DNA from: Parcubacteria group bacterium GW2011_GWA2_40_14
Lineage (GTDB): Bacteria; Patescibacteriota; Minisyncoccia; Phycocordibacterales; DATDWN01
NCBI GenBank assembly: GCA_000996025.1
Contig: LBYF01000001.1
Location: forward strand, 3,507 to 67,506
Length of the DNA: 64,000 nt
Direction: 5' to 3'
The position numbers and the translations under genes were made by a program. Shown piece after piece: positions 18,450 through 62,363 of the stretch. The notes beneath the pieces are model-generated. The model was not told the DNA's origin. It saw only the letters and a program-made list of their open reading frames with translations, and made no database searches. Each line of letters begins with the position of its first letter. The stretch's first letter is position 1.

Positions 18450-18523
18450 TTTGCATATGTATTCAAGAAACTCAATTATAATTTTGGCACAGTATATTGT
18501 ACCAAAATAGAAATATTAAACTC

Positions 18524-22507: not shown

Positions 22508-23122
22508 ATGCAAATTGATTTTATATTTTCCATTTTGATACTTATTTTTTCTGTCATTGTCCATGAGGTTTCTCACGGGTTTGCGGCATATTTGCAAGGC
22601 GACAATACGGCAAAATTTGCTGGACGATTAACCCTAAATCCCCTCAGTCATTTGGAATGGTTCGGTTCCTTCCTCCTGCCAGTCATGTCCTATTTTCTCG
22701 GAGGGTTTATTATTGGCTGGGCAAAACCGGTGCCGTTTAATCCATACAATTTACGCAACCAAAGATGGGGAGAATCCATTGTAGCTTTTGCTGGACCGGC
22801 TGCAAATATTTGTTTAGCTCTAATCTTCGGATTGCTTATTCGTTTTGGAGTTTTGATTCAGTTTGGTGAAGCTTTTGTCCAAATAGCCGTTATGATTGTT
22901 TTTATAAATCTTATCCTTGCTACATTTAATCTCATTCCCATACCACCACTGGACGGTTCCAAAATCCTTTTTTCTGTTTTGCCAAATAGTTTACTTGAAG
23001 TCCGTTCGTTTCTAGAAAGAAACAGTATATTTATTTTAATTTTCTTTATCTTTTTCCTCTGGCAATTTATTTTGCCTCTCGTATCTCTTGAATTTTCTCT
23101 CATTACTGGATTTGCCTTGTAA
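22508..23122 (+). CDS. Site-2 protease family (M50) zinc metalloprotease
   Basis: HEVSHG (HExxH) lies within a TM helix, and the protein is polytopic. Confidence 0.75.
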   Translation: MQIDFIFSILILIFSVIVHEVSHGFAAYLQGDNTAKFAGRLTLNPLSHLEWFGSFLLPVMSYFLGGFIIGWAKPVPFNPYNLRNQRWGESIVAFAGPAANICLALIFGLLIRFGVLIQFGEAFVQIAVMIVFINLILATFNLIPIPPLDGSKILFSVLPNSLLEVRSFLERNSIFILIFFIFFLWQFILPLVSLEFSLITGFAL

Positions 23123-46407: not shown

Positions 46408-47022
46408 ATGTATATGGACAGAGGAGAAGAATACAAAAAAAGGCTAAAAGACTTTCTAGATTCTGATACTACAGAAGCAAAAATTGCAATGGTGGCTCTT
46501 TGTGTATTTGCTGTAGCCTCCCTCCCCATTCTCGTGGTTGGGGTTGCGGCTATGGGTAATGTGGTGCAGACGTTTCAGATGTTTAAGAGGTCTAAAAAGT
46601 ATTCTAGAATGCAAATTCAAAGCGCGGTTGAAAGTACTAAGCGTCAAAAGCTTATAGAATATGTTACTGACAAAGACGGAAAAACAATAGTAAAAATTAC
46701 AAAGAAAGGTGAAACTAAGTTAAGAACTTTTGACATTGAGCTTATGTGTATTAATACGCCAAAGAAATGGGATGGTAAATGGAGATTGGTCATGTTTGAT
46801 ATTCCTATGCGATTTACAAAAGGCAGAGAAGCTCTGAGATATCATTTGAAAAATTTAGGTTTTCTCCAATTTCAGAAATCCGCATGGATACACCCTTTTC
46901 CTTGTGAAGATGAAATCTTGTTTATTGCCGATTTTTTTGGAATAGGGAAGCACGTGGAAATTTTAACTGTAGAAAATCTCTTAAACGACGAAAAATTAAA
47001 GAAACATTTCCGACTTGATTAG
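46408..47022 (+). CDS. Membrane-anchored PaaX C-terminal-domain-like (Cas2/VapD-fold) protein
   Basis: There is an N-terminal TM. KKWDGKWRLVMFDIPMRFTKGREALRYHLKNLGFLQFQKSAWIHP matches the PaaX_C W-G-W motif region. Confidence 0.5.
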   Translation: MYMDRGEEYKKRLKDFLDSDTTEAKIAMVALCVFAVASLPILVVGVAAMGNVVQTFQMFKRSKKYSRMQIQSAVESTKRQKLIEYVTDKDGKTIVKITKKGETKLRTFDIELMCINTPKKWDGKWRLVMFDIPMRFTKGREALRYHLKNLGFLQFQKSAWIHPFPCEDEILFIADFFGIGKHVEILTVENLLNDEKLKKHFRLD

Positions 47023-47098: not shown

Positions 47099-47845
47099 TT
47101 GCAAGTTGTGGTTTCCGACATTCTTATACAAGACATAAATGACCAGAAAGAGTTTTTCTGCTATACTTATTTAAGTATGTTTATATGGAATCTATTAGTT
47201 AAAAATTTTCCTGAATACTGTGAATCAGTAGCTGGCTTTTGGACGGTTGAACCACTGAACGCACTAACTAACTTCGCGTTTTTTATCGGAGCATATTATT
47301 TATTGAAATATATCCGTGTTAATAATTTAAAAAACCGCTTAAGCATTTTCTTGACAGGATTAATGGTAGTTATGGGATTAGGCAGTCTATTGTGGCATTC
47401 GTATAGATCAGAAATAACGATGTTGCTTGATACCTTGCCGATTTACATTTTCTTTATTTTAGCCCTTTATCTTTTTGTACAGGTTCTTACAAAAAATAAA
47501 AAACTTACCATTGTTATTTTGGCTTTATTAGGATTAATATATTATTTAATTTTTACTTATATTCCTGGTCTAAATATTTTTAGTGGTTCACTAAAGTATA
47601 TTTTTATTCTTATAGTTTTAGTAGCATTAAGTTTTTTTATAAGAAAGAAGTATGGATATGATTATAACTTTTTAACACCACTAGGCATCTTTTTAGTGGC
47701 GATAATGTTAAGGACGATTGATATTTTTATGTGTCCATTTTTCCCATTCGGAACTCATTTTATATGGCATATTTTGATTGCAATAGCTATGTATTTCGGT
47801 TCAACTCTAATTTTGCGTTTAAATGCTAAAATGAATCAAGTCTGA
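47099..47845 (+). CDS. Polytopic membrane protein (7-TM, possibly ceramidase-like hydrolase)
   Basis: This is a hydrophobic ORF with conserved His residues (WHSYRSE, THFIWHIL). The family assignment is uncertain. Confidence 0.35.
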   Translation: MQVVVSDILIQDINDQKEFFCYTYLSMFIWNLLVKNFPEYCESVAGFWTVEPLNALTNFAFFIGAYYLLKYIRVNNLKNRLSIFLTGLMVVMGLGSLLWHSYRSEITMLLDTLPIYIFFILALYLFVQVLTKNKKLTIVILALLGLIYYLIFTYIPGLNIFSGSLKYIFILIVLVALSFFIRKKYGYDYNFLTPLGIFLVAIMLRTIDIFMCPFFPFGTHFIWHILIAIAMYFGSTLILRLNAKMNQV

Positions 47846-47863: not shown

Positions 47864-48184
47864 GTGTTTTTGGTGTATAATAAAGAAATGAAATTAAGTA
47901 TTGAGGAAATAAAAGAAAAAATAACTCCGATTTTGGAGAAGTACGGCGTGACTTACGCCGGTGTTTTCGGTAGTGTGGCGCGCGGTGATGCTCGTCCGGA
48001 CAGTGACGTGGATATTCTCGTTAAAATCCGTAATCCCATTAGCATATTCGTCTTTTTTAAGATGAATGATGAATTGGAAGAAATATTGGGACGAAAGGTG
48101 GATTTAGTGACGGAAAACTCTCTTATTCGTTATTTCAAGCCATATGTGATGCTTGATTTAAAGCCACTCTATGAAGTCAGATAA
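47864..48184 (+). CDS. Nucleotidyltransferase antitoxin MntA (minimal NTase)
   Basis: GVFGSVARGDARPDSDVDILV is the pol-beta-type NTase signature. Confidence 0.8.
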   Translation: MFLVYNKEMKLSIEEIKEKITPILEKYGVTYAGVFGSVARGDARPDSDVDILVKIRNPISIFVFFKMNDELEEILGRKVDLVTENSLIRYFKPYVMLDLKPLYEVR

Positions 48185-48488
48185 AGTATACTGCGAATAT
48201 ATTATCAGTTGTATAGATAAAGTTGGCCGTTTTACTTCTGGAATGAAACGAGAGGATTTTCTTGCAAGTGAGTTAGTGCAAAGTGCAGTAATCTTGCAAC
48301 TCCTTCTTATTGGTGAATTGTCAAAAAATTTATCGTCTGAATTTAAGAAAAGTACTGATTTGCCTTGGACACAAATTTCCGGTTTCCGAAATAGAGCAAT
48401 CCATAATTATTATGAACTTGAGCTGGAATTCGTTTGGTTTGCAGTTCAAAATGATTTGTTTCCTATTAAAGAAGCTGTCTCCAAATAA
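48171..48488 (+). CDS. HepT (DUF86) HEPN-family toxin
   Basis: RNRAIHNY matches the R-x4-H-x-Y HEPN motif. The gene overlaps the NTase gene by 14 nt. Confidence 0.8.
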   Translation: MKSDKVYCEYIISCIDKVGRFTSGMKREDFLASELVQSAVILQLLLIGELSKNLSSEFKKSTDLPWTQISGFRNRAIHNYYELELEFVWFAVQNDLFPIKEAVSK

Positions 48489-48493
48489 AAATC

Positions 48494-49084
48494 ATGTCTC
48501 CTCAAACTTTTATTTTTATCGGCAGGTCCGGGTGTGGTAAAGGAACACAGGCCGAGCTTTTACAAAAACGGGTCAAAGAAAAAGACCAATCGAGTGAGAT
48601 TTTTTATCTTGAAACTGGAGCATATTTCAGAGAGTTTTTAAGGGGAGAAAAATATTCAAATAAATTAGCAAATGAAATATATAAAAAAGGCGAGCGCCAG
48701 CCGGACTTTCTGGCTGTGCATATTTGGTCGCATATTCTTATCGGAGATTTCAAAGGCACAGAGCACGCATTTTTTGACGGTATTTGCCGCTCTCTTCCGG
48801 AAGCCACCACTTTTACCACTGCTTTGGAGTTTTATGGACGCAAAGCCATTGTAATTTATCTGAATGTTTCGCGGGAATGGTCGGAGGAGCGCCTTCTTCT
48901 CCGCGGGCGAGCAGATGACAAGAGTAAGGAAGAAATAAAAAAACGACTTGACTGGTTTGATAAAGATTCGTATCCTGCAGTAGAGTATTTTAATATGCAC
49001 AAACAATATACTCTTTTGGATATAAACGGCGAGCAGAGTATAGAAAAGGTACATGCCGATATTGTAGGGAAGCTGGGATGGTAG
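48494..49084 (+). CDS. adk: Adenylate kinase (short-LID type)
   Basis: The P-loop is GRSGCGKGTQ, the LID is short (RGRADD), and the gene is in the expected operon position. Confidence 0.7.
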   Translation: MSPQTFIFIGRSGCGKGTQAELLQKRVKEKDQSSEIFYLETGAYFREFLRGEKYSNKLANEIYKKGERQPDFLAVHIWSHILIGDFKGTEHAFFDGICRSLPEATTFTTALEFYGRKAIVIYLNVSREWSEERLLLRGRADDKSKEEIKKRLDWFDKDSYPAVEYFNMHKQYTLLDINGEQSIEKVHADIVGKLGW

Positions 49085-49129
49085 CAAAACCCTTGACTTC
49101 TGTATATACTCCGCATATACTGTGTATAT

Positions 49130-49399
49130 ATGACACAAGTAGTTATAAATTTCAAAACGGATGCTAAGCTAAAGAGCGCAGCCAAAGATGTTCTCGATGA
49201 GATGGGTCTGAATTTTTCCATTGCTTTTAACGCCTACATGAAAAAGTTGATTACTGAGAGGAGAATAGAGTTTACCACGCCAGAGATACCCAACGCTCGA
49301 CTCCGGAAAGCAATAAAAGAGGCGGATAAAGAGTATAAGAGCGGTAAGTTAAAGTTTTATACTGATATGCGCGAGATGCGCAAGTCATTAGGTGTATAA
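49130..49399 (+). CDS. RelB/DinJ-family antitoxin
   Basis: The small RHH-like protein immediately precedes a YafQ-like toxin. Confidence 0.6.
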   Translation: MTQVVINFKTDAKLKSAAKDVLDEMGLNFSIAFNAYMKKLITERRIEFTTPEIPNARLRKAIKEADKEYKSGKLKFYTDMREMRKSLGV

Positions 49400-49402
49400 A
49401 CT

Positions 49403-49663
49403 ATGCACATCGCTTTTTCTTCGAGTCTTAATAAAAAGATTAAGAAAATTCCAACAAAAATAGTTGATAAATTTTTTGAGCGATTGGAGATTTTTAAAAA
49501 GGATATATTTAGTCCAATTTTAAACAATCATAAATTGCACGCTGAATACGAAGGGTGTAGCAGTATAAATGTCACAGGTAATTTTCGAGCGATATTTAAG
49601 CATGTCGATGATAATCATGTCGTTTTTTCTGATTTAGATACTCACCCCGAACTCTACGGCTAA
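49403..49663 (+). CDS. YafQ/RelE-family mRNA interferase toxin
   Basis: The C-terminus HKLHAEYEGCSSINVTGNFRAIFKHVDDNHVVFSDLDTHPELYG parallels the YafQ C-terminus. Confidence 0.65.
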   Translation: MHIAFSSSLNKKIKKIPTKIVDKFFERLEIFKKDIFSPILNNHKLHAEYEGCSSINVTGNFRAIFKHVDDNHVVFSDLDTHPELYG

Positions 49664-49679
49664 TTTTTATTTTTGAATT

Positions 49680-50447
49680 ATGATTACAATAAAAAAACCA
49701 GAAGAAATAGAAATTTTGAAAGAAGGCGGGAGACGGCTTGGTATTGTTTTGCGCAAAGTAAGCGAGATTGTCAAACCAGGCATTTCTACACAGGAACTTG
49801 AGGACTTGGCACGCAAACTGATAGAAGATGGTGGTGATACCGCATCATTTCTAAATTACAAACCGCGTGGAGCAAAACGGCCGTTTCCTGCGGCCATATG
49901 TGTGTCCATAAACAACGAAATCGTTCACGGTATTCCCAACGAAAGGCCACGCATAATTCAAGAGGGCGACATTGTTTCTCTTGATTTAGGTATTACACAC
50001 AAAGGTATAATAACAGACAGTGCCGTGTCTGTGGGTGTTGGTAAAATGGCGCCTATTGACCAGAAGCTGATAGACCATTGCAGGGAAGCTTTAGCACTCG
50101 GTATCAAGGCCGCTCGCGGCGGTAATCACATAGGCGATATTGGCTATGCAATAGAGTCGTTTGCCCGCCCTCTGGGCTACGGGCTATCAGAGGGGCTTGC
50201 AGGACATGGGGTTGGTTACAAGGTTCACGAAGACCCATTTGTGCCAAACGAAGGGGAAATCGGTAGAGGCGAGCTTCTGCGTCCAGGTATGGTCCTAGCC
50301 CTTGAGCCGATGCTGACTCTCGGCACAGACAAAATAGTTCTAGACAAAGATGGCTATACATACAAAACCGCCGATGGTACAAACGCCGCCCACTGGGAAC
50401 ATTCTATTGTCATCACGGAAGGAGAGCCGATAATTTTGACAAAATAA
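49680..50447 (+). CDS. map: Methionine aminopeptidase type I
   Basis: The pita-bread metal ligands are in typical context (D..D, H, E, E). Confidence 0.9.
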   Translation: MITIKKPEEIEILKEGGRRLGIVLRKVSEIVKPGISTQELEDLARKLIEDGGDTASFLNYKPRGAKRPFPAAICVSINNEIVHGIPNERPRIIQEGDIVSLDLGITHKGIITDSAVSVGVGKMAPIDQKLIDHCREALALGIKAARGGNHIGDIGYAIESFARPLGYGLSEGLAGHGVGYKVHEDPFVPNEGEIGRGELLRPGMVLALEPMLTLGTDKIVLDKDGYTYKTADGTNAAHWEHSIVITEGEPIILTK

Positions 50448-50503
50448 ATATTTAAACATACAAATAGTTGCTTTTCAGAGAAATATGATTTACTATACGT
50501 TAC

Positions 50504-50692
50504 ATGAACACTATGACTAAAAAAGTAAAAAAACAAAAAAATCTTTTACAGCATATTTTTAACGAAATCCGCTTATTGCGAAGCGAGGTAACTTTATTTA
50601 TGCCTGACGAAAATTTAAATGGGTATGCCCATCCATCAAGAATAAAAAAATCTTTCGAAAGAGCTTTACGTCAATACCCAAGAACAATCTAA
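50504..50692 (+). CDS. Putative antitoxin partner of the downstream RelE/ParE toxin
   Basis: The small basic ORF overlaps the toxin start (TAATG). Confidence 0.35.
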   Translation: MNTMTKKVKKQKNLLQHIFNEIRLLRSEVTLFMPDENLNGYAHPSRIKKSFERALRQYPRTI

Positions 50693-50949
50693 TGTATGTC
50701 ATTAAAACTTCTGATTTTGAAAGAGCATATAAAAGGTTACCTTTTGGCATACAAAAACTTTGTCTTATTCAAGAAGAAAGATTTGCTTTAAGTTCTCGCG
50801 ATCCAAGGTTACATATAAAAAAACTGAAAGATTTTGATGATGCCTTTTCTTTCAGGATTACTAGAAAATATCGGGCATTGTTTTATTTTCAAAATGCAGA
50901 GACTGTGATATGTTTTGATATTGACCATCGTAAAGATGTTTACAAATAG
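50692..50949 (+). CDS. RelE/ParE-family toxin
   Basis: LHIKKLK...FSFRITRKYRALFYF...VICFDIDHRKDVYK matches the RelE/ParE fold pattern. Confidence 0.7.
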   Translation: MYVIKTSDFERAYKRLPFGIQKLCLIQEERFALSSRDPRLHIKKLKDFDDAFSFRITRKYRALFYFQNAETVICFDIDHRKDVYK

Positions 50950-50985
50950 TTGCTTTTTATTACCGTATCGATATACTGATGCTCT

Positions 50986-52056
50986 ATGAAAGTTGATACT
51001 TTGAAGCTGTCCAGAACTAAAGTTGCTGGTCTTACAAAAAAATTTGATTTAAATAACCCCGTATCGCGCAAGCTATATTTTGTGGCTAAGGTGGGTAAAG
51101 AGATAAAGGCTCTGCAAAAATATTTAAAATCGGGCAAGCGTTTTGTGGCATTTCTCATTGGTATAAAAAATTCCGGTAAAGGAACGTATGCAAAATTGTT
51201 TCTGGAAGCAGTAGGTCCTCTCGCCGTCCATATATCTATCGGGGATATTGTGCGCGATGTTCATACGAGCATCGAAACCCCAACTGGCAAGAAAAAATTA
51301 ATCAATTTTTTGAAGAAAAACTATCGCGGATTTCATAGTCCAGAAGAAACTATTAAAGCAATACTCGGACGCAGTCAATCAACTCTCATTACTTCTGAAC
51401 TTATTTTGGCCCTTATCAAATTTGAAATAAGCAAACATCCGAACCAGTCATTATTTATTGACGGTTTCCCTCGCGCTTTTGACCAGATTCCGTACTCACT
51501 CTTTTTGAAAGAGATTATTGGTTATCAAGGAGTGCCAGACGTTTTTGTTTTCTTTAATGTTCCAACCAGTGTGATTGACGAGCGCATTAAGACTCGGGTT
51601 ATTTGTCCTGTTTGCAAAACATCGAGGGGTTTGAAACTTTTGCCAACAACAAAAGTCGGATATGATGCAAAAAATAAAAAGTTTTATCTAGAATGTGACA
51701 ATCTTTCCTGTCCTGGCTCACGAATGATAGCGAAAGAGGGCGACGAGCTTGGTATAGAACCTATCCGTGAACGAATCGAAACTGATTCAAAAATTTCCAA
51801 AGAATTACAAAAAATTCACGGTGTGCCAAAAGTATTTCTGCGCAACGCCATTCCAGTTGTACACGCCAAAAAAATCGTAGATGATTACGAAATTACCCCT
51901 GAATATCAGTACAAACTAGATAAATCAGGTAAGGCGGTTATTGTAGAAGTACCATGGACAGTTAAAGACGACCAGGGAGTAAAATCTTACAGTCTCCTGC
52001 CCTCTGCGGTTGTCATTTCACTTATAAAGCAATTAGCCAATATTCTTACTAAATAA
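50986..52056 (+). CDS. Second adenylate/nucleoside-monophosphate kinase paralog with a zinc-ribbon LID and N- and C-terminal extensions
   Basis: The P-loop is GIKNSGKGT, followed by IDGFPRAFDQ and a LID with CPVC...CDNLSCPG (four Cys). Only the middle ~250 aa of the 356-aa ORF is the kinase core. Confidence 0.65.
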   Translation: MKVDTLKLSRTKVAGLTKKFDLNNPVSRKLYFVAKVGKEIKALQKYLKSGKRFVAFLIGIKNSGKGTYAKLFLEAVGPLAVHISIGDIVRDVHTSIETPTGKKKLINFLKKNYRGFHSPEETIKAILGRSQSTLITSELILALIKFEISKHPNQSLFIDGFPRAFDQIPYSLFLKEIIGYQGVPDVFVFFNVPTSVIDERIKTRVICPVCKTSRGLKLLPTTKVGYDAKNKKFYLECDNLSCPGSRMIAKEGDELGIEPIRERIETDSKISKELQKIHGVPKVFLRNAIPVVHAKKIVDDYEITPEYQYKLDKSGKAVIVEVPWTVKDDQGVKSYSLLPSAVVISLIKQLANILTK

Positions 52057-52589
52057 GCTTTCTCATGACAAAGTCATTAATTATCACTTAGTTCAGGAAG
52101 ACATTCTCTACGACGTTAATTTAGACGGTATATTAGAATAGAAGCTGCTTCGCGCTTTTATTTCACTCACCCTACGTCAGGCTTAAAAGTCAATAGCCCA
52201 ACTTCATCGTGTATTCCTCCAGCTGTGATACAATATAAACAGGGTTACGTATATTTTCTACCTAACCATTTTTTAGGGAGTCCAATATTTTTGTGCCACG
52301 ATGAGTAAAATTTATTATTTTGTTCTGACGAGTACAATTGCGGACACCCACCTACGAGTTTTGTAGGAGAATATTCGTAATCCGATTAAGCTATCCAGTA
52401 TTTTTGCAAAAAGAGCTGGATGTTTTAATTTATCTTATTTTCGGATTTTTTGTAATCCTGAATACACATCATCAAAATTACAAAATCGTTAATAAGTACT
52501 TATTTATAGCCATATATACTTTGTTAATTCATTGAATATATTAACTTAATCAATTTGGATTATAAACAAATTCGTGTTAAAATAGATGT

Positions 52590-52868
52590 ATGAATACACC
52601 CTTAAGTCAGTTTATAAAACAGAGGCCTCATTTGATTTGGTATACCAAAAACTATGACGGTTTGGACGCCGAATCCATCGTTGAAGCTACACTAAACTAT
52701 GGTAATTGGGACGATGTGCAGGAACTTATAAAAATTCTAGGAATGAAAAAAACCGCCCAGATTTTCCGAGAAAAATCCAAACCGGATAAATTTGGCAGAC
52801 AGAATTACGATTCTCGGGTAAAAAATTATTTTCAACTATACTTTGGTAAATATGTCAAACATGCATAA
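52590..52868 (+). CDS. Hypothetical protein, possible cognate partner of the downstream AbiEii-like toxin
   Basis: The ORF overlaps the next gene by 26 nt. No family was recognised. Confidence 0.3.
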   Translation: MNTPLSQFIKQRPHLIWYTKNYDGLDAESIVEATLNYGNWDDVQELIKILGMKKTAQIFREKSKPDKFGRQNYDSRVKNYFQLYFGKYVKHA

Positions 52869-53472
52869 AGAAATTTTTACACAAGAACAGATTAAACTTC
52901 TACCTTTGATTAGGAAATTTTCCAAGGATTTCGGTCTTGTTGGTGGGACAGCCATTGCATTGCATTTAGGTCATAGGCGCTCAATAGACTTTGACATGTT
53001 TTCCAATAAACCGTTCAATAATGTGGCTGTGCGTAGGAAAATAAAAAATACGCACAGTATTCAAAAGGTCTTCAAAGACGAAACAGGACAATACACTTTT
53101 TTTGTTAATGAGGTGCAAATGACTTTTTATCATTTTCCCTATGAGATTGATTATTCGGAAAAATTTGAAGATTATGTCAAAATACCAAATCTGCTCATTC
53201 TCGCTGCGATGAAAGCTTTTGCTCTTGGTGGAAGAAATAAATGGAAGGACTATGTTGATTTATATTTTATTCTCAATAACCGTTTTTCTGTAGATGAAAT
53301 CTCCAAAAAAGCCAAAGAACTTTTCCAGGGAGAATTTAATGAAAAAATTTTTCGAAATCAGCTAGCTTATTTTGACGATATAAATTACAAGGAAACGGTG
53401 GACTTTCTGCCGGATTTTGAAGTGAGCGATGAAACGGTAAAAAAAGCTCTGATTGATTTTAGTATTTCCTGA
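52843..53472 (+). CDS. AbiEii/AbiGii-family nucleotidyltransferase toxin (DUF1814)
   Basis: GLVGGTAIALHLGHRRSIDFDMF is the characteristic DUF1814 motif. Confidence 0.7.
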   Translation: MVNMSNMHKEIFTQEQIKLLPLIRKFSKDFGLVGGTAIALHLGHRRSIDFDMFSNKPFNNVAVRRKIKNTHSIQKVFKDETGQYTFFVNEVQMTFYHFPYEIDYSEKFEDYVKIPNLLILAAMKAFALGGRNKWKDYVDLYFILNNRFSVDEISKKAKELFQGEFNEKIFRNQLAYFDDINYKETVDFLPDFEVSDETVKKALIDFSIS

Positions 53473-53654
53473 CATTGAAAGGGATATGTATAAAAACGAT
53501 TTATTTAAGTTCACAGATTTTACTTTCGAGCCCAAACACATTCAATTTTCCCAAGAAATTTTAAGAGAATCTCGAGTGCCGAACGAGGTATGGGTCATTG
53601 CTTCCCGGAAGTTCGAGTAAAATTGGACGAACTTAAAGCTATTAAAGTCACAGT

Positions 53655-54056
53655 ATGATGTTTCAAACAAAACTTTTTAAACAAGCATTCCTTCTGCTTT
53701 TTGTTGTTGGTATTTTAAATTTGGTTGGAACAGAACTATATTTGTATTGGACACTCTGGTGGTATGACATTATTCTACATTTTCTCTCTGCTGGGGTGGT
53801 TTCTCTAGCTACCATTGTATTCTTTCGCATCTTTCTTGGAAAACGGTTGTCAGGTCAGACATTAATTAAATATGCGGTTTTTTGCGCCCTAGTAGTTGGT
53901 ATTATCTGGGAAATATATGAACTTTATTTTGAGATGACATATCTTTCTGACGGCATGATTTATGTAACAGACACAGTATCAGACCTTATTATGGACATTG
54001 CAGGTGGACTTCTCGGTTCAATATATGCAATTAGATTAGTAAAAAATAATGAGTAA
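53655..54056 (+). CDS. Small 4-TM membrane protein
   Basis: The hydrophobic ORF overlaps the downstream beta-CASP gene by 8 nt. Confidence 0.4.
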   Translation: MMFQTKLFKQAFLLLFVVGILNLVGTELYLYWTLWWYDIILHFLSAGVVSLATIVFFRIFLGKRLSGQTLIKYAVFCALVVGIIWEIYELYFEMTYLSDGMIYVTDTVSDLIMDIAGGLLGSIYAIRLVKNNE

Positions 54057-55422
54057 ATTACAAATAACTTTTTATGGCGGAGTAGGCACTGTTACAGGGG
54101 CAAATTTCTTGCTTGAAAGTAATAACACCAAGATTCTTATTGATTGTGGACTATTACAAGGCACACCCGATGGAGTGGAGGAAAATAGGAAACCATTTCC
54201 ATATGATACAAAATCAATAGATTATCTTTTTATCACCCATGCTCACATGGACCATATAGGCAGAGTGTGCAAGCTAGTCAGAGATGGTTTTAGAGGGACA
54301 ATTTATTCAACACCTGAAACAAGAGAGATTGCTAGTGTCATGATTCTTGATGCATTAAAAATAATGGACCAAAATTATCGCAATCCACAAAACGGAGTTA
54401 GCGAAAGGCCATTATATGAACTAGCTGACTATAACCAAGCGTTTTCTATATGGAAAACCATAGAATATGATACCCAAACTGAAATTAATGAAGAATTTTC
54501 AGTTTATCTGAAAGATGGTGGGCATATTCTGGGCTCTGCCATGTATGAATTTAGTTATAATGGTAAAAAAGTTGTTTTTACGGGCGATTCTGGGAATTCT
54601 CCCTCACCGCTTTTGAAAAATACAGAAAATGTGACTGATGCAGATTATCTAATCATTGACAGTGTTTATGGCGACAGAAATCATGAGCCAAAAGAGGAAA
54701 GAGACCAAAGATTTAAGCAAATTATTTTAGATACGATAGAAAAAAGAGGGGCACTAGTTATTCCAGCATTTTCTGTAGAGCGAACGCAAGTTATTTTGTA
54801 TGAATTAAATAATCTAGTTGAAGAAAAAAAGATCCCATCTGTGCCAGTTTTTCTAGATTCACCTTTGGGTTCAAAAGTGACGAACATTTACGCTAGAAGT
54901 TCAAAAGATTTTAATACTGGAGTGCAGAGAGAAATAAAAGAAGGAGATGATATTTTTAATTTTCCAAAACTGACTATCACTGCGGGTTCAGGGGATTCCA
55001 AACAGATTGTCAGTATTCCAAATCCCAAAATAATCGTGGCGGGTTCAGGAATGTCTTCTGGTGGCAGGGTATTGTGGCACGAGATGCAATACTTGCCAGA
55101 CCCAAAGAACACAGTACTTCTCATGGGCTACCAAGCACTTGGCACATTGGGTAGAAGAATACAGGACAAACCAAAGGAAGTGGAAATACATGGTCAAATC
55201 GTACCCATTCGTGCTCGTATAGAAATGATTTCCGGCTACTCATCGCACAAAGACTCTGATAGCTTGGTGGCTATGGTTGAGCAAACAAAAGCTACGTTGA
55301 AAAAAGTTTTTGTAGTCATGGGCGAACCAAAGTCATCCACATATCTGGCCCAGCGTCTGCGCGATGAGCTTCTCGTGGAAGCTATTTACCCAGAAAAAGG
55401 CAAACCTTATCTATTGGAGTAA
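54049..55422 (+). CDS. Beta-CASP / MBL-fold RNA-metabolising metallo-hydrolase (RNase J/CPSF-like)
   Basis: ITHAHMDHIG (HxHxDH), DSVYGD, and a beta-CASP middle region with an RNA-specificity C-terminus are present. Confidence 0.8.
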   Translation: MSKLQITFYGGVGTVTGANFLLESNNTKILIDCGLLQGTPDGVEENRKPFPYDTKSIDYLFITHAHMDHIGRVCKLVRDGFRGTIYSTPETREIASVMILDALKIMDQNYRNPQNGVSERPLYELADYNQAFSIWKTIEYDTQTEINEEFSVYLKDGGHILGSAMYEFSYNGKKVVFTGDSGNSPSPLLKNTENVTDADYLIIDSVYGDRNHEPKEERDQRFKQIILDTIEKRGALVIPAFSVERTQVILYELNNLVEEKKIPSVPVFLDSPLGSKVTNIYARSSKDFNTGVQREIKEGDDIFNFPKLTITAGSGDSKQIVSIPNPKIIVAGSGMSSGGRVLWHEMQYLPDPKNTVLLMGYQALGTLGRRIQDKPKEVEIHGQIVPIRARIEMISGYSSHKDSDSLVAMVEQTKATLKKVFVVMGEPKSSTYLAQRLRDELLVEAIYPEKGKPYLLE

Positions 55423-55467
55423 ATTGCTAATTGATTTTTAATGACGAAGTGATATACTGGAGGCACT

Positions 55468-55656
55468 ATGAGCAAAGCTGAAAAGGAAATTGTAAAAGTG
55501 GTCAAAAAGACAATTCTCGAATCTATTCATGGGGTTTTTGCCGACCCTGATCAAGGACTGGAACTCAAAGAATCTATAAAAAGACGCCTGAAAAAAGCAT
55601 CGTTATCTCCCAAAGGATTTATTACCCTTCCATCCGCCAGAAGAAAATTTGCTTAA
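55468..55656 (+). CDS. Putative antitoxin for the downstream RelE/ParE toxin
   Basis: The 62-aa ORF has an SD (GGAGG) and sits 5 nt before the toxin gene. Confidence 0.45.
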   Translation: MSKAEKEIVKVVKKTILESIHGVFADPDQGLELKESIKRRLKKASLSPKGFITLPSARRKFA

Positions 55657-55661
55657 TTTAT

Positions 55662-55925
55662 ATGTTGCGCTGGAAAGTAATTTTTTCGCTTGACGCACAA
55701 GATGATTTGGATAATTTGTCTCGCTCAGTGCGGGATAGGGTTTTTGATAAGCTGGGATGGTTTGAAAATAATTTTGACTCAATAACACCTCTCCTTTTAA
55801 CTGGGAAGTTTAACGGTTTCTACAAGTTGCGAGTGGGTGATTGGCGGGTAATGTATCAGATTGATTGGAATAAAAATTATATTATTATTCATGTTATTGA
55901 CCACAGATCAAACATCTACAAGTAA
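55662..55925 (+). CDS. RelE/ParE-family toxin
   Basis: YKLRVGDWRVMYQIDWNKNYIIIHVIDHRSNIYK is the canonical RelE/ParE C-terminus. Confidence 0.75.
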   Translation: MLRWKVIFSLDAQDDLDNLSRSVRDRVFDKLGWFENNFDSITPLLLTGKFNGFYKLRVGDWRVMYQIDWNKNYIIIHVIDHRSNIYK

Positions 55926-56059
55926 CTGTTATGAGGAAACGCTTTAAAAATAAGAGAGAGAGTCATGTGCTTTATGTAAACCCCATAAGCGAGGTTGGGC
56001 AATGCGCTGGAGTTCAAAAGAAGCCGAACTACTTAGAGTTTTTGAAAGAGAGAAGGCTC

Positions 56060-56404
56060 TTACTTTGCGAATTCCAGAATTTTTTTAAATGTATTAGGAT
56101 TTTCAATAACAAGAGTAGCTAGAATTTTGCGGTCTAGGAGGATGCCTTTCTTTTTTAAACCACCCATAAGTTTGCTATATGATGTCCCAAGTTCTTTTGA
56201 GGCGTATGAAATTTTGACATTCCAGAGTTTGCGAGCGTCGCCCTTTTTGTCTCGTCTGTGCGCAAAAGCGTAAGCTCCAGCGTGAAAGATGGCTTCTTGG
56301 GCTTCCCGCTCCTTTGTAGAACGGCCATGTCGATAGCCTTTTGTCTTACGAAGAATGTTTTTACGATTCTTTAATGCATTGACCCCTTTTTTTACTCGTG
56401 TCAT
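56060..56404 (-). CDS. rplT: 50S ribosomal protein L20
   Basis: MTRVKKGVNALKNRKNILRKTKGYRHGRS is typical of L20. Confidence 0.9.
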   Translation of the reverse strand: MTRVKKGVNALKNRKNILRKTKGYRHGRSTKEREAQEAIFHAGAYAFAHRRDKKGDARKLWNVKISYASKELGTSYSKLMGGLKKKGILLDRKILATLVIENPNTFKKILEFAK

Positions 56405-56530
56405 AAATGTTACGATTTACATATTTGGCCAATCTCTGCGTTAAAACTGCAAAAATGCTCGTCACCTACCAACGAGGTAGGCTCCTCAATTTTTGCAATT
56501 TTGCCTTGATATTGTCTCAAATCTGTAAAT
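56405..56530. repeat. Family-5 element forming the rplT 5' leader (minus strand); GAGATTGGCCAAATATG lies 20 nt upstream of the ATG
   Basis: It shares the 14-mer gagattggccaaat with the rpsL leader and the hairpin CGTCACCTAC..GTAGGCTCC with the copy at 43411. Confidence 0.7.
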
Positions 56531-56563
56531 CTCGTTTTCATAATTATTTTTAATTTTTAACTT

Positions 56564-56752
56564 TTAATTTGTAATAAATCTTGCCTTATCTTTGTTACTC
56601 ATCGGGAAATTGACCATGCCTTTTTTGGCAAGTTGAGAACGGCGACTTTCTTTTGCATTGAAATGGTTTTGACCAGTTTTTCTTGCCGAAATTTTTCCAT
56701 TCTTGCTGACTTTTAGTCGTTTTGTAAAACTTTTATTTGTTTTTGTGCTCAT
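56564..56752 (-). CDS. rpmI: 50S ribosomal protein L35
   Basis: The small basic ORF (MSTKTNKSFTKRLKVSKNGK) sits between infC and rplT. Confidence 0.85.
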   Translation of the reverse strand: MSTKTNKSFTKRLKVSKNGKISARKTGQNHFNAKESRRSQLAKKGMVNFPMSNKDKARFITN

Positions 56753-56754
56753 AT

Positions 56755-56844
56755 GTTTAGTTTGTAAAGTTATAAAGTTTGTAAAGTTTCTAAAGTGGAA
56801 TGCATTTGATGTTACTTTATGAACTTTATAACTTTATGAACTTT
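56755..56844. repeat. Family-2 palindromic repeat between infC and rpmI
   Basis: The copy reads tttgtaaagttataaagtttgtaaagtttctaaagt...ctttatgaactttataactttatgaactttc. Confidence 0.75.
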
Positions 56845-57354
56845 CTAACTTCTCTCGATTACTATCGAGAGACCTTTCAAACTTTTCTTGGCGGGATCTG
56901 CCACTTTATATTCTTCGGTAATCAGTTTCAAAACCCTTTCTATGCGTTCCTTTAGAAACTTGATATCCATATATTTGGTTCTACCTGGCAAAAAAAGGTC
57001 TATTTTGATGCGATTTCCTTCCTTGAGCCAGCCACTGGCCTTTTTGGCTTTGAGCTCTAAGTCGTGTTCCCCAGTGCCTACTTTTATTTGAATATTCTTT
57101 ACCTCTACCGTATGTTGCTTGGTTTTTGCTGTTTTAAGCTTTTTGTTTTCAGCGTATTGAAATTTACCATAATCCATGATTTTTGCAACCGGTGGGTTGG
57201 CGTTTGGTGATATTAGAATAAGGTCAAGCCCCGCCTCACGGGCTTTTTCCAAAGCTTCTTTGAAAGAGATAACTCCCAGATTCGTGCCATCATCTAAAAG
57301 CACACGTAACTCTGGAGCTTGGATTTGATTGTTTATTTTTACGAATGTAGACAA
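56845..57354 (-). CDS. infC: Translation initiation factor IF-3
   Basis: IRAPELRVLLDDG..GVISFKEAL and the C-terminal domain are present. The true start codon may be non-canonical. Confidence 0.9.
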   Translation of the reverse strand: MSTFVKINNQIQAPELRVLLDDGTNLGVISFKEALEKAREAGLDLILISPNANPPVAKIMDYGKFQYAENKKLKTAKTKQHTVEVKNIQIKVGTGEHDLELKAKKASGWLKEGNRIKIDLFLPGRTKYMDIKFLKERIERVLKLITEEYKVADPAKKSLKGLSIVIERS

Positions 57355-57514
57355 TATTTTAGAACTGAATGTTCGCGATTTAACTTATAATAAAATATAG
57401 CAATAAGATATCATATTTTTTTTGGGAATGCAAAATTCATACAAGCAGTTGACTTTGGAGAGATATTACTTTAGTTTTATCTATGGATTAGCACATCGAC
57501 ATAAGGAGGCATTC

Positions 57515-58252
57515 ATGGATGCAAAAGAAAAAATTATCCTCGCACTGGATGTTAATTCCAGAGAGGAAGCACTAGAGTTGGTTCGGATATTCAGGAATTT
57601 CGTTTCAATGTTCAAAGTAGGATTGCGGCTTTTTGTGGCTTGCGGGCCAAACCTTGTCAAAGAAATCATCGGGCAAGGGAATAAGGTTTTTCTTGACTTG
57701 AAATTTAATGATACGCCAAAGACAGTAGGAGAGGCGACCAAAGAAGCTTCCATGCTGGGCGTGGAAATGTTCACTGTTCACGCCTCTGCTGGTATTTCTG
57801 CCATGAAGGAGGCAGTTGCCAATAAGGGGAATTCAAAACTGCTGATTACCACGGTTCTGACCTCGCTTTCGGATAACCATCTGAATCCTCGTAATACTAC
57901 GCGTTATATTTTAGGAGAAATAACACAACAGAAGGTCAGGCACTTCTCCGAAGACGCTGTTTATGTTGGGGCAGATGGCATTACCTGTTCACCTCAAGAC
58001 CTCAAAATGCTTGAGTTTCACATGGGACATGAATCCTTTCGGCGGTTACTAAAAGTAACTCCTGGAATTTGCGAAACAAATGATCTGCCAAGTGGTCAAA
58101 AACGCACAATGACAGCAAGAGAAGCTATCTTGGATGGAGCAGATTATCTCGTTCTTAGCCGAGTTATTACAGAAACAAAAGTAGGTAGTCCGATGAACGC
58201 GCTACTTCGCATCACTGCGGAAATTTCTTCCGTCGAAAGGAGAACGAATTGA
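57515..58252 (+). CDS. pyrF: Orotidine 5'-phosphate decarboxylase
   Basis: ILALDV...DLKFNDTPKT is the catalytic Asp-Lys-Asp context. An SD (AAGGAGG) is present and GC is higher than in flanking DNA. Confidence 0.8.
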   Translation: MDAKEKIILALDVNSREEALELVRIFRNFVSMFKVGLRLFVACGPNLVKEIIGQGNKVFLDLKFNDTPKTVGEATKEASMLGVEMFTVHASAGISAMKEAVANKGNSKLLITTVLTSLSDNHLNPRNTTRYILGEITQQKVRHFSEDAVYVGADGITCSPQDLKMLEFHMGHESFRRLLKVTPGICETNDLPSGQKRTMTAREAILDGADYLVLSRVITETKVGSPMNALLRITAEISSVERRTN

Positions 58253-59908: not shown

Positions 59909-60295
59909 ATGAAAAAAGATTTTGATGATTGGAACAAAAAGAAAAAGAAAATTCATAAAAATGATAATGCTCCATTTTGTCACGAAAGGGAGCTCTGGTG
60001 GGGTGCTCTCGGTGTGAACATAGGTTCTGAACAAGATGGTTCTGGTAAAGAAGATTCTCGTCCAATACTTGTACTGAAAGGTTTGAGTGTCCAAACATGC
60101 GTCGTTATACCTCTTACTACTTCTACAAGTATTCATACACTGCGACCATCAGTCGGAATTGTGGAAGATGAAGAAGCACATGCTTTGATGTCACAAATTA
60201 GAGTCATTGATACAAAACGACTAATCCGCAAAATAGGTTATCTTGATAAAAAGATATTTCAACAGATACGAAAAATCGCCAAAGACATGCTTTAG
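59909..60295 (+). CDS. MazF/PemK-family toxin (no adjacent antitoxin gene recognised)
   Basis: WWGALGVNIGSEQDGSGKEDSRPILVL...VVIPLTTS parallels the MazF/Kid fold motifs. Confidence 0.65.
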   Translation: MKKDFDDWNKKKKKIHKNDNAPFCHERELWWGALGVNIGSEQDGSGKEDSRPILVLKGLSVQTCVVIPLTTSTSIHTLRPSVGIVEDEEAHALMSQIRVIDTKRLIRKIGYLDKKIFQQIRKIAKDML

Positions 60296-61380: not shown

Positions 61381-61919
61381 TGTTGTGGCGCTTCACGAGT
61401 ACATTCAGCATCCTACAAAAATATAGTCGCTTCGCTTGTTATTTTGTGGAAGTGGCGATATCGAAATCGCATGCATACAGAGAATTGAAACGAATCTACA
61501 GCGCGTAGTTTATTTAATGTTTAAATCATATTGCTTGGAACAAACAAAATGCGATACAATCGAGTCTTCTTTATTTCAAAATATTTCCGAGACAAAAAAT
61601 ATTTCTAACCTCAAGTTATGTCAATCAACTCCTCGTACGAGATATGTGAGGAGCGACCGTCTCTTAGGGCTGTTGTTTAGACAGTGGCGTAAGAGAAAGC
61701 GAAGTCGTTTGCTCCATAAAATGGAGAGACGATTGCTTTAGATAAGTTTTTTACACTTAATCTTTCCAAACTGTTTTAGGAGAGCTTGGCGCTCCGCGTT
61801 GCCTGAATCAATGTCATCTATATGTCAAAACCTGTCACTCCCGAAAAATAGTAGTCAATAGCTAGTATTTAGTAGCCAGGTGAAGACAACTACTTTTCGG
61901 GAATTTTTGGTTTATCTTG

Positions 61920-62363
61920 TCAACGATCTTTAAAATCTCTTCCTATCTCTCTTTCCGTATCTCGTTTTTTCAATGTCTCGCGTTTATCAAACTTTTTCTT
62001 ACCTTTTGCAGTGGCAATATCAATCTTCACTTTCGGTCCTTTATTATATACCGAAAGAGGGACAATTGTCAACCTGTTTTTTTGGTCTATGGATACGAGC
62101 TCGGATATCTCTTTTTTTGTAAGCAATAGTTTGCGATTGCGGTAGGGGTCATAATCTTTCGGCGTATTTGCCGGCTGATATGGTGGAACGAACATCCCAA
62201 CTACGTATGCTTCACCACCTCGTATGGTAATATGAGCACCCTCCAATGAGCCCTGACCAGCTTTTAGGGATTTTACTTCAAAACCAAAAAGCTCTATGCC
62301 AGCAACATAGGTATCCAATATCTCGTAATTAAACCTAGCTTTTTTATTGGTTATGAGTGACAT
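61920..62363 (-). CDS. smpB: SsrA-binding protein SmpB
   Basis: ARFNYEILDTYVAGIEL.G.EVKSL is the SmpB signature. Confidence 0.9.
   Translation of the reverse strand: MSLITNKKARFNYEILDTYVAGIELFGFEVKSLKAGQGSLEGAHITIRGGEAYVVGMFVPPYQPANTPKDYDPYRNRKLLLTKKEISELVSIDQKNRLTIVPLSVYNKGPKVKIDIATAKGKKKFDKRETLKKRDTEREIGRDFKDR

What the first reader, a model, noticed from the sequence alone, without database searches (positions are those of the whole stretch)
48494..52056. Two adenylate-kinase-family paralogs flank map; the second (356 aa) has a four-Cys zinc LID plus 60-aa N- and 100-aa C-terminal extensions
The first (196 aa) is short-LID type with a divergent P-loop (GRSGCGKGTQ), in the canonical secY-adk-map slot. 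The second has P-loop GIKNSGKGT, IDGFPRAF, and a LID with CPVC...CDNLSCPG, embedded in a much longer protein. Either this is a duplicated NMP kinase with a new specificity (important for a salvage-dependent organism), or one copy is a regulatory or toxin-associated kinase-fold protein.
Basis: partly seen in the sequence, partly recalled or inferred. Interest (0 to 1): 0.5.

Follow-up and report, generated by a model that had tools for sequence, protein, structure and literature searches.

The report
Conserved long adenylate-kinase-like enzyme of Patescibacteria
The 356-residue gene is a real, strongly conserved and uncharacterised enlarged adenylate-kinase relative found only in tiny symbiotic (Patescibacteria) bacteria, and here it sits where close relatives carry a nucleoside-diphosphate kinase gene, of which a dead stub remains.

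Summary
Both ORFs exist as described and both belong to the adenylate kinase (Adk) family (Pfam ADK 5.5e-16 and 6.2e-12). They are not a recent duplication, because pairwise BLASTP finds no similarity (E = 1.1).

The 356-aa form is not a fusion artefact. Full-length relatives of 354-367 aa, 56-82% identical, occur in at least 496 species-level genomes. Every informatively titled record is Patescibacteria. They are annotated only as 'nucleoside monophosphate kinase'.

The AlphaFold model (pLDDT 89.6) is an Adk core with four additions:
- a 55-aa N-terminal extension
- a ~25-aa insert in the NMP-binding domain (motif YRGFH)
- a Cys4 LID with non-canonical spacing

There is no 100-aa C-terminal tail. 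Catalytic residues are kept, except that a Lys stands at the E. coli R156 position.

The short form has a full catalytic set but a changed NMP site (Q92 to E, L58-V59 to R-Q).

The neighbouring toxin-antitoxin pairs are independent insertions.

In sister lineages the slot after map holds ndk instead, and a 27-codon ndk remnant lies 1 nt after the long gene's stop. Substrate specificity is unresolved.

The parts
48494..49084 (+). Short Adk-family kinase (196 aa). It has a short Mycobacterium-type LID and a full catalytic set, but a re-specified NMP site (LETG-x-x-FR, GERQP, DGICRSLPE).
49680..50447 (+). Methionine aminopeptidase (map), the gene flanked by the two kinases.
   Evidence: Peptidase_M24, 7.5e-41.
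50986..52056 (+). Long Adk-like kinase (356 aa, predicted pI 9.7), a member of a Patescibacteria-restricted conserved family.
50986..51150 (+). N-terminal extension, residues 1-55. It consists of an extended segment and a 24-residue helix (residues 25-48) that carries the invariant residues R28, Y31, F32, K35 and G37.
   Evidence: It is absent from all solved Adks: at most 212 of 356 residues align.
51160..51186 (+). P-loop GIKNSGKGT (residues 59-67), with a family-specific Lys (K61) where E. coli Adk has P9.
51295..51375 (+). Insert of about 25 aa in the NMP-binding domain. It adds an extra helix and the conserved motif N-Y-R-G-F-H (residues 112-117).
51592..51756 (+). LID (residues 203-257). 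It contains R204, C207-P-x-C210, R214, C237-D-N-x-x-C242, R246 and K250-E-G-D253.
51844..51999 (+). C-terminal beta mini-domain (residues 287-338), inserted between the last core strand and the last helix. It is predicted with high confidence when modelled alone.
52058..52141 (+). Pseudogene remnant of ndk. These are the last 27 codons plus the stop of the 200-aa Patescibacteria-type nucleoside-diphosphate kinase. It begins 1 nt after the stop codon of the long gene and has no start codon.

Best explanation
The 356-aa ORF is a catalytically competent nucleotide phosphotransferase of the adenylate kinase family. It belongs to a distinct, strongly conserved subfamily found in Patescibacteria (Parcubacteria-type lineages).

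Proposed mechanism:
- It works like a long-LID Adk. A nucleoside triphosphate binds at the P-loop under a Cys4 (presumably zinc-stabilised) LID.
- A nucleoside monophosphate binds in the NMP-binding domain.
- Closure of the two lids brings the conserved Lys/Arg cluster onto the transferred phosphate.

Because the acceptor site keeps the residues that E. coli Adk uses for AMP, I take AMP/ADP to be the most likely substrate of that site.

The lineage-specific parts are the N-terminal helix, the YRGFH insert in the NMP lid and the beta mini-domain next to the donor-base loop. I take them to modify substrate range or partner binding.

The 196-aa ORF is a separate short-LID Adk-family kinase. Its acceptor site has been re-specified, so it probably acts on a nucleotide other than AMP.

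Together with ndk, these genes form an exchangeable nucleotide-kinase slot at the end of the ribosomal-protein operon.

Shown: family membership, fold, conservation, distribution, synteny and the ndk remnant. Inferred: activity, zinc binding and substrates.
For: Family and fold:
- Pfam ADK scores are above the gathering cut-off for both ORFs.
- The best PDB sequence and structure matches are all Adks.
- The AlphaFold model has pLDDT 89.6 and pTM 0.88, with the Adk strand/helix order.

Catalytic residues:
- In the long family, the equivalents of K13, D33, R36, D84-G-F-P-R88, Q92, R119, R123, D159 and R167 are invariant or nearly invariant.
- They persist in divergent 320-346-aa relatives.

Not an artefact:
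- The top 120 database hits are all 350-368 aa, 56-99% identical, and cover 95-100% of the query.
- 496 species-representative genomes encode a relative.
- A profile search of 1.84 billion representatives gives a compact family: 64 hits at E <= 1e-30, many of them fragments.

Conservation:
- The protein is 57% identical between the window and L049. Over the same distance SecY is 64%, Map 47% and the short form 43% identical.

Housekeeping context in other lineages:
- The usual order is RF - ComEC - (AspRS or PPIase) - long - NUDIX ... M50 - S12 - S7 - EF-G.

Short form:
- All Adk catalytic Arg/Lys residues are present. E is invariant at the Q92 position, and R-Q replaces L58-V59.
Against: - No biochemical data exist for any member. 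NCBIfam adk, UMP-CMP kinase and all equivalog models score far below their cut-offs (65.8 vs 168 bits for TIGR01351).
- A Lys occupies the position that MAFFT aligns with the catalytic R156 of E. coli Adk, and Gly the position of D158. In canonical Adks, Arg-to-Lys changes at catalytic arginines are strongly deleterious (my own knowledge), so activity would need compensation by K61, R214 or R246.
- T31 of the AMP site is replaced by Ile/Val.
- The conserved R114/H117 of the NMP-lid insert could redefine the acceptor.
- I could not inspect model coordinates, so the residue-to-site assignments rest on sequence alignment and secondary structure only.
Confidence: 0.6

Rival explanations
1. The long form functionally overlaps with, or substitutes for, nucleoside-diphosphate kinase. 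It would be an Adk-fold enzyme with a canonical ADP/AMP site and a relaxed donor-site base preference. It would regenerate all NTPs by NDP + ADP -> NTP + AMP. Lineages would therefore keep either it or ndk in the same slot.
For: - The slot after map holds the long form in the window, L049, L086, L087 and L088. It holds ndk in L085, L106, L107 and the P0448 contig.
- On a SecY+short+Map tree the two states are interleaved, and the window's sister L106 has ndk.
- The window carries a decayed 27-codon ndk tail directly after the long gene.
- None of the 9 sampled loci keeps both genes intact in the slot.
- Adenylate kinase has been suggested to compensate for loss of Ndk in E. coli (PMC12934123).
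- A 2026 preprint proposes that Patescibacteria regenerate NTPs from RNA-derived NDPs through such phosphotransferases (10.64898/2026.06.21.733656).
- The beta mini-domain is inserted right next to the loop that reads the donor base in Adk.
Against: - L080 has an E. coli-type ndk 6.5 kb from an intact long gene, so the two are not mutually exclusive.
- Whole-genome co-occurrence could not be tested.
- The alternation could reflect neutral reshuffling of a variable slot. L106 carries a different NDK variant there, and toxin-antitoxin modules also insert there.
- The loop before the last helix (S-L-L-P339) seems retained.
Confidence: 0.17
2. The long form is an NMP kinase for a non-adenine or broad substrate set, for example a GMP-kinase analogue or a broad (d)NMP kinase fed by ComEC-imported DNA. 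The short form in the secY-map slot would then be the organism's ordinary adenylate kinase.
For: - The short form sits in the syntenic adk slot.
- In 37 of 83 loci the long gene lies within four genes downstream of ComEC, and in 24 of 83 a NUDIX gene follows it.
- The NMP lid has a conserved insert with R114/H117, and T31 is lost.
- A cultivated patescibacterium lacks Gmk.
Against: - The residues equivalent to L58, V59, F86, P87, R88 and Q92 of E. coli Adk are kept in the long form but altered in the short form.
- The ComEC and NUDIX proximity is conserved synteny at the edge of the ribosomal superoperon and need not be functional.
Confidence: 0.2
3. The long form is a non-catalytic, regulatory or toxin-linked kinase-fold protein, or an assembly or fusion artefact.
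For: - Toxin-antitoxin pairs lie on both sides.
- There is a Lys at the R156 position.
- The protein has a high pI (9.7) and many extra conserved basic residues.
Against: - The P-loop and almost all catalytic residues are invariant across hundreds of species.
- The toxin-antitoxin pairs are absent in relatives with the same kinase genes.
- The same 354-367-aa architecture recurs on contigs from many independent assemblies.
- There are no significant PADLOC or PHROG hits.
Confidence: 0.03

Closest known systems
Zinc- or metal-containing long-LID bacterial adenylate kinases (Bacillus subtilis 1P3J, Geobacillus 1ZIN, Desulfovibrio gigas 3L0P)
   Same: - Shared P-loop, NMP-binding domain and a four-stranded LID with a CxxC first half-site.
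- Same catalytic Lys/Arg set.
   Different: - About 145 extra residues in four places.
- The second Cys pair is CX4C, placed 26 residues after the first. It aligns with the R-x-D-D segment and not with the canonical C150/D153.
- K instead of R at the E. coli 156 position.
- K instead of P at P-loop position 9.
- Scores far below the NCBIfam adk cut-offs.
Short-LID Adk / UMP-CMP kinase type (Mycobacterium tuberculosis Adk 1P4S/2CDN, yeast Ura6 1UKY, AK1)
   Same: - The 196-aa ORF has the same short LID (R-G-R-A-D-D) and the same length.
- Its best PDB hit is yeast uridylate kinase (1.3e-12), closely followed by Adks.
   Different: - NMP-site residues are changed: E for Q92, R-Q for L58-V59, I-C for F86-P87, and D33 is variable.
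- An 8-12-aa insert follows helix 1.
- It lies below all NCBIfam cut-offs.
Adk-family enzymes with nucleoside-diphosphate kinase activity (E. coli Adk as backup for Ndk; human AK9)
   Same: - Adk fold.
- Precedent that this fold can phosphorylate NDPs (PMC12934123; the AK9 activity is from my own knowledge).
   Different: - No sequence relationship beyond the family level.
- Activity of the long form is untested.
- The link here is positional: it alternates with ndk in one genomic slot.
Patescibacteria-type NDK (about 200 aa, PF00334, C-terminal tail ...LYDVNLDGILE)
   Same: - It occupies the same slot between map and DUF2238 in sister genomes.
- It is itself 74-90% conserved.
- Its last 27 codons survive in the window.
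   Different: It has an unrelated fold and mechanism (a phospho-histidine ping-pong enzyme). In the window only a non-functional stub remains.

Membership tests
Adenylate kinase family (Pfam PF00406 ADK): long form | Score above the Pfam gathering threshold | tested here: met
   46.3 bits against a 26.8 cut-off, but only residues 130-253 match the model.
Adenylate kinase family (Pfam PF00406 ADK): long form | P-loop GxxGxGK with the catalytic Lys | tested here: inconclusive
   The sequence is G59-I-K-N-S-G64-K65-G-T. The Walker A motif GxxxxGK and the Lys are invariant. The second Gly of the Adk motif is Asn, and the first Gly is lost in divergent relatives.
Adenylate kinase family (Pfam PF00406 ADK): long form | NMP-binding domain with the R36 and R88 equivalents and the D-G-F-P-R motif | tested here: met
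   R90 and D159-G-F-P-R163 are invariant, and so is Q167 (= Q92). The domain carries a ~25-aa insert.
Adenylate kinase family (Pfam PF00406 ADK): long form | LID and core arginines R119, R123, R156, R167 | tested here: inconclusive
   R200, R204 and R263 are invariant. The R156 position aligns with K250, which is >=90% conserved. The alignment of this loop is uncertain without coordinates.
Adenylate kinase family (Pfam PF00406 ADK): long form | Adk three-domain fold (CORE, NMPbind, LID) | tested here: met
   [not shown]
Bona fide adenylate kinase, EC 2.7.4.3 (NCBIfam TIGR01351 / PRK00279 equivalogs) | Score above the curated equivalog or subfamily cut-off | tested here: not met
   The long form scores 65.8 against 168 bits, and the short form 67.4 against 168 bits. 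All equivalogs score far below their cut-offs.
Bona fide adenylate kinase, EC 2.7.4.3 | ATP:AMP phosphotransferase activity | not testable with these tools
   This needs an enzyme assay.
Zinc-LID (Gram-positive type) adenylate kinases | Cys-X2-Cys-X16-Cys-X2-Cys/Asp metal site in the LID | tested here: not met
   Four conserved Cys are present, but the spacing is CX2C-X26-CX4C. Divergent relatives have CxxC as the second pair. Metal binding itself is not testable here.
UMP-CMP kinase family (TIGR01359) | Score above the cut-off | tested here: not met
   The short form scores 61.0 and the long form 32.3, against a cut-off of 207.6 bits.
Toxin-antitoxin-associated kinase (zeta toxin type) or defence-system kinase | Match to toxin or defence models, and conserved pairing with an antitoxin gene | tested here: not met
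   Zeta_toxin scores only 15.8 bits, below its cut-off, and only for the short form. The PADLOC VakA hits at E about 0.002-0.005 are not significant. The toxin-antitoxin neighbours are absent in L049, L086 and L087.
Nucleoside-diphosphate kinase (PF00334): the stub at 52058-52141 | Complete NDK domain with the catalytic His | tested here: not met
   Only residues 174-200 of a 200-aa NDK are left. There is no start codon, and positions that are conserved in the family have changed.

The most novel reading that the evidence does not exclude
The long Adk-like family is an Adk-fold analogue of nucleoside-diphosphate kinase. Its added modules would broaden the donor-site base range, so that one enzyme equilibrates all NDP/NTP pools against ADP/AMP. 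Patescibacteria that live on scavenged RNA or DNA would therefore keep either it or ndk, which would explain the reciprocal occupancy of the slot after map and the dead ndk stub in this genome.
Probability: 0.17. Interest if true: 0.7.

Novelty: new variant of a known kind. Interest (0 to 1): 0.5.

Why it matters
Patescibacteria lack de novo nucleotide synthesis and most energy metabolism. A recent preprint argues that they live on host nucleic acids, with phosphotransferases of exactly this type regenerating NTPs.

This uncharacterised Adk-like enzyme is restricted to the phylum. It is nearly as conserved as SecY, and it exchanges places with ndk. That makes it an obvious candidate for a key step in that economy.

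The short paralogue has a re-specified acceptor site and may fill one of the 'missing' NMP kinases. Both predictions can be tested with recombinant protein.

The result also warns that automatic 'adenylate kinase' labels in these genomes hide at least two distinct enzymes.

Tried and rejected
- **Fusion or misassembly:** rejected. The full-length architecture recurs in hundreds of independent assemblies.
- **Recent tandem duplication:** rejected. There is no pairwise similarity.
- **Toxin-antitoxin or defence association:** rejected.
- **Phage dNMP-kinase relationship:** no PHROG hit for the long form.
- **AFDB search:** the library was unavailable.
- **Other NMP kinases nearby:** tblastn with E. 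coli Gmk, Cmk, Tmk and PyrH found none in the window, and only one PyrH in 104 loci. The genome's kinase complement therefore stays unknown.
- **Closer relatives from metagenome contigs:** the scan returned only relatives of 56% identity or less.
- **An intact tandem long-ndk arrangement:** none was found among the 9 relatives examined.
- **ndk remnants in other long-type loci:** none.
- **Literature:** no paper describing this family was found.
Full report
**Observation**

The window is a low-GC (about 39%) stretch with a gene content typical of Patescibacteria. It holds type IV pilus genes, TIM, PGK, RecJ, RNase H, ComEC, an M50 peptidase, S12-S7-EF-G-EF-Tu, the spc operon, secY, L20/IF3, SmpB and tmRNA.

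The two ORFs exist exactly as reported.
- The short one runs from 48494 to 49084 (196 aa).
- The long one runs from 50986 to 52056 (356 aa).
- map (49680-50447) lies between them.
- Both pass the Pfam ADK threshold (5.5e-16 and 6.2e-12).
- Both fall far below every NCBIfam adenylate-kinase or UMP-CMP-kinase cut-off.

The quoted motifs are all present. The closest homologues of the short form are labelled Candidatus Zambryskibacteria.

**The two genes are not a duplicated pair**

- BLASTP between them finds nothing (E = 1.1).
- Each has its own family of close homologues. The top 120 hits of the short form are mostly 195-205 aa and 59-99% identical. The top 120 hits of the long form are 350-368 aa and 56-99% identical over 95-100% of the query.
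- The small genes between them are self-contained toxin-antitoxin modules:
  - MNT/HepT at 47864-48488;
  - RelB plus a RelE/HigB-like toxin at 49130-49663;
  - a 62-aa ORF plus a RelE-like toxin at 50504-50949.
- Relatives keep secY-short-map-long without these modules (L049, L086, L087). The kinases are therefore not toxin-associated.

**The long form is a real, conserved family**

- A pattern scan of one genome per GTDB species found 496 species encoding a relative.
- Every informative record title is Patescibacteria: Doudna-, Lipton-, Komeili-, Jorgensen-, Buchanan-, Nealson-, Giovannoni-, Wildermuth- and Portnoybacteria, Paceibacterota and Minisyncoccia.
- Some third-party-annotated MAGs carry titles such as 'uncultured Gammaproteobacteria'. 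L006, L021, L024 and L028 share one neighbour order (ComEC - its C-terminal piece - ... - long - same downstream gene); L006 and L021 carry the 'Gammaproteobacteria' title, L024 and L028 are titled Patescibacteria. I treat those titles as placeholders.
- A profile search of 1.84 billion representative proteins gave a compact family: 938 hits at E <= 1e-3 and 64 at E <= 1e-30, many of them fragments. Beyond the main clade there are divergent full-length relatives of 320-346 aa that still cover profile positions about 25-355.
- The only divergent relative that carries a name is again Patescibacteria.
- Source annotations say only 'nucleoside monophosphate kinase', 'adenylate kinase family enzyme' or 'hypothetical protein'. 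I found no paper on the family.

**Anatomy of the long form**

Combining the secondary structure with the alignments, the Adk core is complete:
- P-loop G59-IKNS-G64-K65-GT;
- G86-D87-x-x-R90, equivalent to G32-D33-x-x-R36 of E. coli Adk;
- L134-I135, equivalent to L58-V59;
- D159-G-F-P-R163-x-x-x-Q167, equivalent to D84...R88...Q92;
- D198-x-R200-x-x-x-R204, equivalent to R119 and R123;
- R263, equivalent to R167.

The extra residues form four modules.
1. **N-terminal extension (residues 1-55).** It has a 24-residue helix carrying the invariant R28, Y31, F32, K35 and G37.
2. **Insert in the NMP-binding domain (about 25 residues).** It adds a helix and the conserved N-Y-R-G-F-H motif (residues 112-117).
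3. **Enlarged LID.** It has C207-P-x-C210 and C237-D-N-x-x-C242.
4. **Beta mini-domain (residues 287-338).** It is inserted between the last core strand (ending in the invariant R286-N287) and the loop S336-L-L-P339 that precedes the C-terminal helix.

So the '100-aa C-terminal extension' does not exist as such.

The Cys spacing is not the canonical CX2C-X16-CX2C/D. HMMER aligns the second pair with the R-A-D-D segment of the Bacillus enzyme. Divergent relatives use CxxC there.

In the MAFFT alignment the position of catalytic R156 is a conserved Lys (K250), and D158 is a Gly. Family-specific basic residues (K61, R114, H117, R214, R246) might compensate or bind something extra. I could not open the coordinates, so these assignments are inferences from alignment.

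**The short form**

- It resembles short-LID enzymes such as the M. tuberculosis Adk.
- It has every catalytic Lys/Arg/Asp.
- Its acceptor site is altered in a conserved way:
  - E103 replaces Q92 and is invariant;
  - G-E-R-Q-P replaces G-K-L-V-T;
  - I-C replaces F-P before R88;
  - D33 is not kept.
- The long form, not the short one, therefore keeps the AMP-type acceptor residues. T31, which becomes Ile/Val, is the exception.
- An Arg plus a carboxylate in the base pocket would suit guanine or cytosine. That is only a lead.

**Genomic context and the ndk link**

In most lineages the long gene is not near map. Clustering of neighbours in 83 loci gave these counts:
- ComEC lies within four genes upstream in 37 loci.
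- AspRS lies directly upstream in 29 loci.
- A PPIase lies directly upstream in 12 loci.
- A NUDIX gene lies downstream in 24 loci.
- The M50-S12-S7-EF-G block often follows.

The gene therefore sits at the head of the ribosomal superoperon. In the window, ComEC (18497-19999) and M50 (22508-23122) are present without it.

In the window's own clade the gene has moved to the slot after map. That slot alternates between two occupants.
- The long form occupies it in the window, L049, L086, L087 and L088.
- A roughly 200-aa NDK occupies it in L085, L106, L107 and the P0448 contig.
- In both cases it is followed by DUF2238 where that gene is present, and then by a beta-CASP RNase gene.
- On a SecY+short+Map neighbour-joining tree the two states are interleaved. 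The window's sister (L106) has NDK and the outgroup (L049) has the long form.

The window carries a remnant of ndk.
- tblastn with the L085 NDK hits window 52058-52138, 1 nt after the long gene's stop. This corresponds to residues 174-200 of NDK, ending ...ILYDVNLDGILE followed by a stop.
- It matches family tails at up to 21 of 27 positions. It has substitutions at positions that are otherwise more than 90% conserved, and it has no start codon. It is therefore a pseudogene stub.
- At the DNA level it is 87% identical to L085 over 38 nt.

The simplest history is an ancestral map-long-ndk tandem followed by reciprocal losses. The alternative is repeated replacement at a variable slot. Either way, ndk at this locus is dead in this genome.

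This makes a functional overlap between the long form and NDK worth testing.
- Adenylate kinase is cited as a backup for Ndk in E. coli (PMC12934123).
- A 2026 preprint proposes NTP regeneration from RNA-derived NDPs by such phosphotransferases in a cultivated patescibacterium.
- However, L080 has an E. coli-type ndk 6.5 kb from an intact long gene, and I could not survey whole genomes. I rate this reading at about 0.17.

**Verdict**

- The finding is real and partly mis-described.
- The long ORF is a member of an uncharacterised, strongly conserved Adk-like subfamily found in Patescibacteria, with three or four added modules. It is most likely an active phosphotransferase with an AMP/ADP-type acceptor site.
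- The short ORF is a second, independent Adk-family kinase with a re-specified acceptor site.
- Specificities remain unresolved.
- I class this as a new variant of a known kind, of moderate interest. The ndk alternation is the most promising lead.

Noticed in passing
window 52058-52141 (+): A 27-codon remnant of a Patescibacteria-type ndk gene (...ILYDVNLDGILE followed by a stop) lies 1 nt after the stop of the long Adk-like gene. Sister genomes have an intact ndk in this slot instead of the long gene.
   Followed up: yes
window about 52243-52397 (+); also L085:10101-10224, L107:7773-7923, L087:8385-8526, L106:5946-6117: A conserved intergenic element, always between the NDK/long-Adk slot and the DUF2238/beta-CASP genes, folds into a rod-like structure of 43 pairs in 5 helices. 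93.8% of cells are paired, against 39-53% when the partners are slid, and 16 pairs show compensatory double changes (0 of 500 shuffles reach this). A TATAAT-like box lies just upstream. There is no Rfam match, even at E <= 1. The shape recalls 6S RNA, which is an untested guess.
   Followed up: partly
window 47864-48488, 49130-49663, 50504-50949, 52590-53472, 55468-55925, 59909-60295: An unusual density of toxin-antitoxin-type modules is inserted between housekeeping genes at the end of the ribosomal operon. They are MNT/HepT, RelB/RelE-like, a small ORF plus a RelE-like toxin, a weak DUF6922 match (E = 3.4e-4, below the Pfam cut-off) plus AbiEii, a small ORF plus ParE, and a MazF/PemK-like toxin. 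Most are absent from relatives with the same backbone.
   Followed up: partly
window 48494-49084 (+): The short Adk-family kinase in the adk slot has an invariant Glu at the Q92 position and Arg-Gln at L58-V59. This suggests an acceptor other than AMP.
   Followed up: partly
window 18497-19999 (+) and 22508-23122 (+): ComEC and the M50 peptidase are present, but the long Adk-like gene that lies between them in many other Parcubacteria is missing there. In this clade the gene has relocated to the slot after map.
   Followed up: partly
window 50447-57354: map is not followed by the usual infA-rpmJ-rpsM-rpsK-rpsD-rpoA-rplQ block. It is followed instead by the kinase slot, a DUF2238-like membrane protein (by synteny; no Pfam hit in the window), a beta-CASP/RMMBL RNase (54049-55422), and L20 and IF3 on the opposite strand. 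The same order is seen in L085, L086, L106 and L107.
   Followed up: no
window 57422-58252 (+): There is an OMP-decarboxylase/HUMPS-family gene (Pfam 9e-37) in a lineage generally thought to lack de novo pyrimidine synthesis. It could be a hexulose-phosphate synthase type instead.
   Followed up: no
window 46408-47022 (+) and 47099-47845 (+): A PaaX-like (Cas2-like middle domain) protein and a ceramidase-family membrane protein are inserted between secY and the short kinase. A PaaX-like gene also occurs in L049, but downstream of the long gene.
   Followed up: no
window 61444-61842 (-) and 61920-62363 (-): tmRNA (Rfam, 76.9 bits) lies next to SmpB. ARAGORN did not report the tmRNA and found no tRNA in the 64 kb.
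   Followed up: no
L106:5350-5934: The window's closest relative with available context carries a different NDK variant in the slot (194 aa, tail ...FQYKRFGVDD). The slot has therefore been exchanged more than once.
   Followed up: partly
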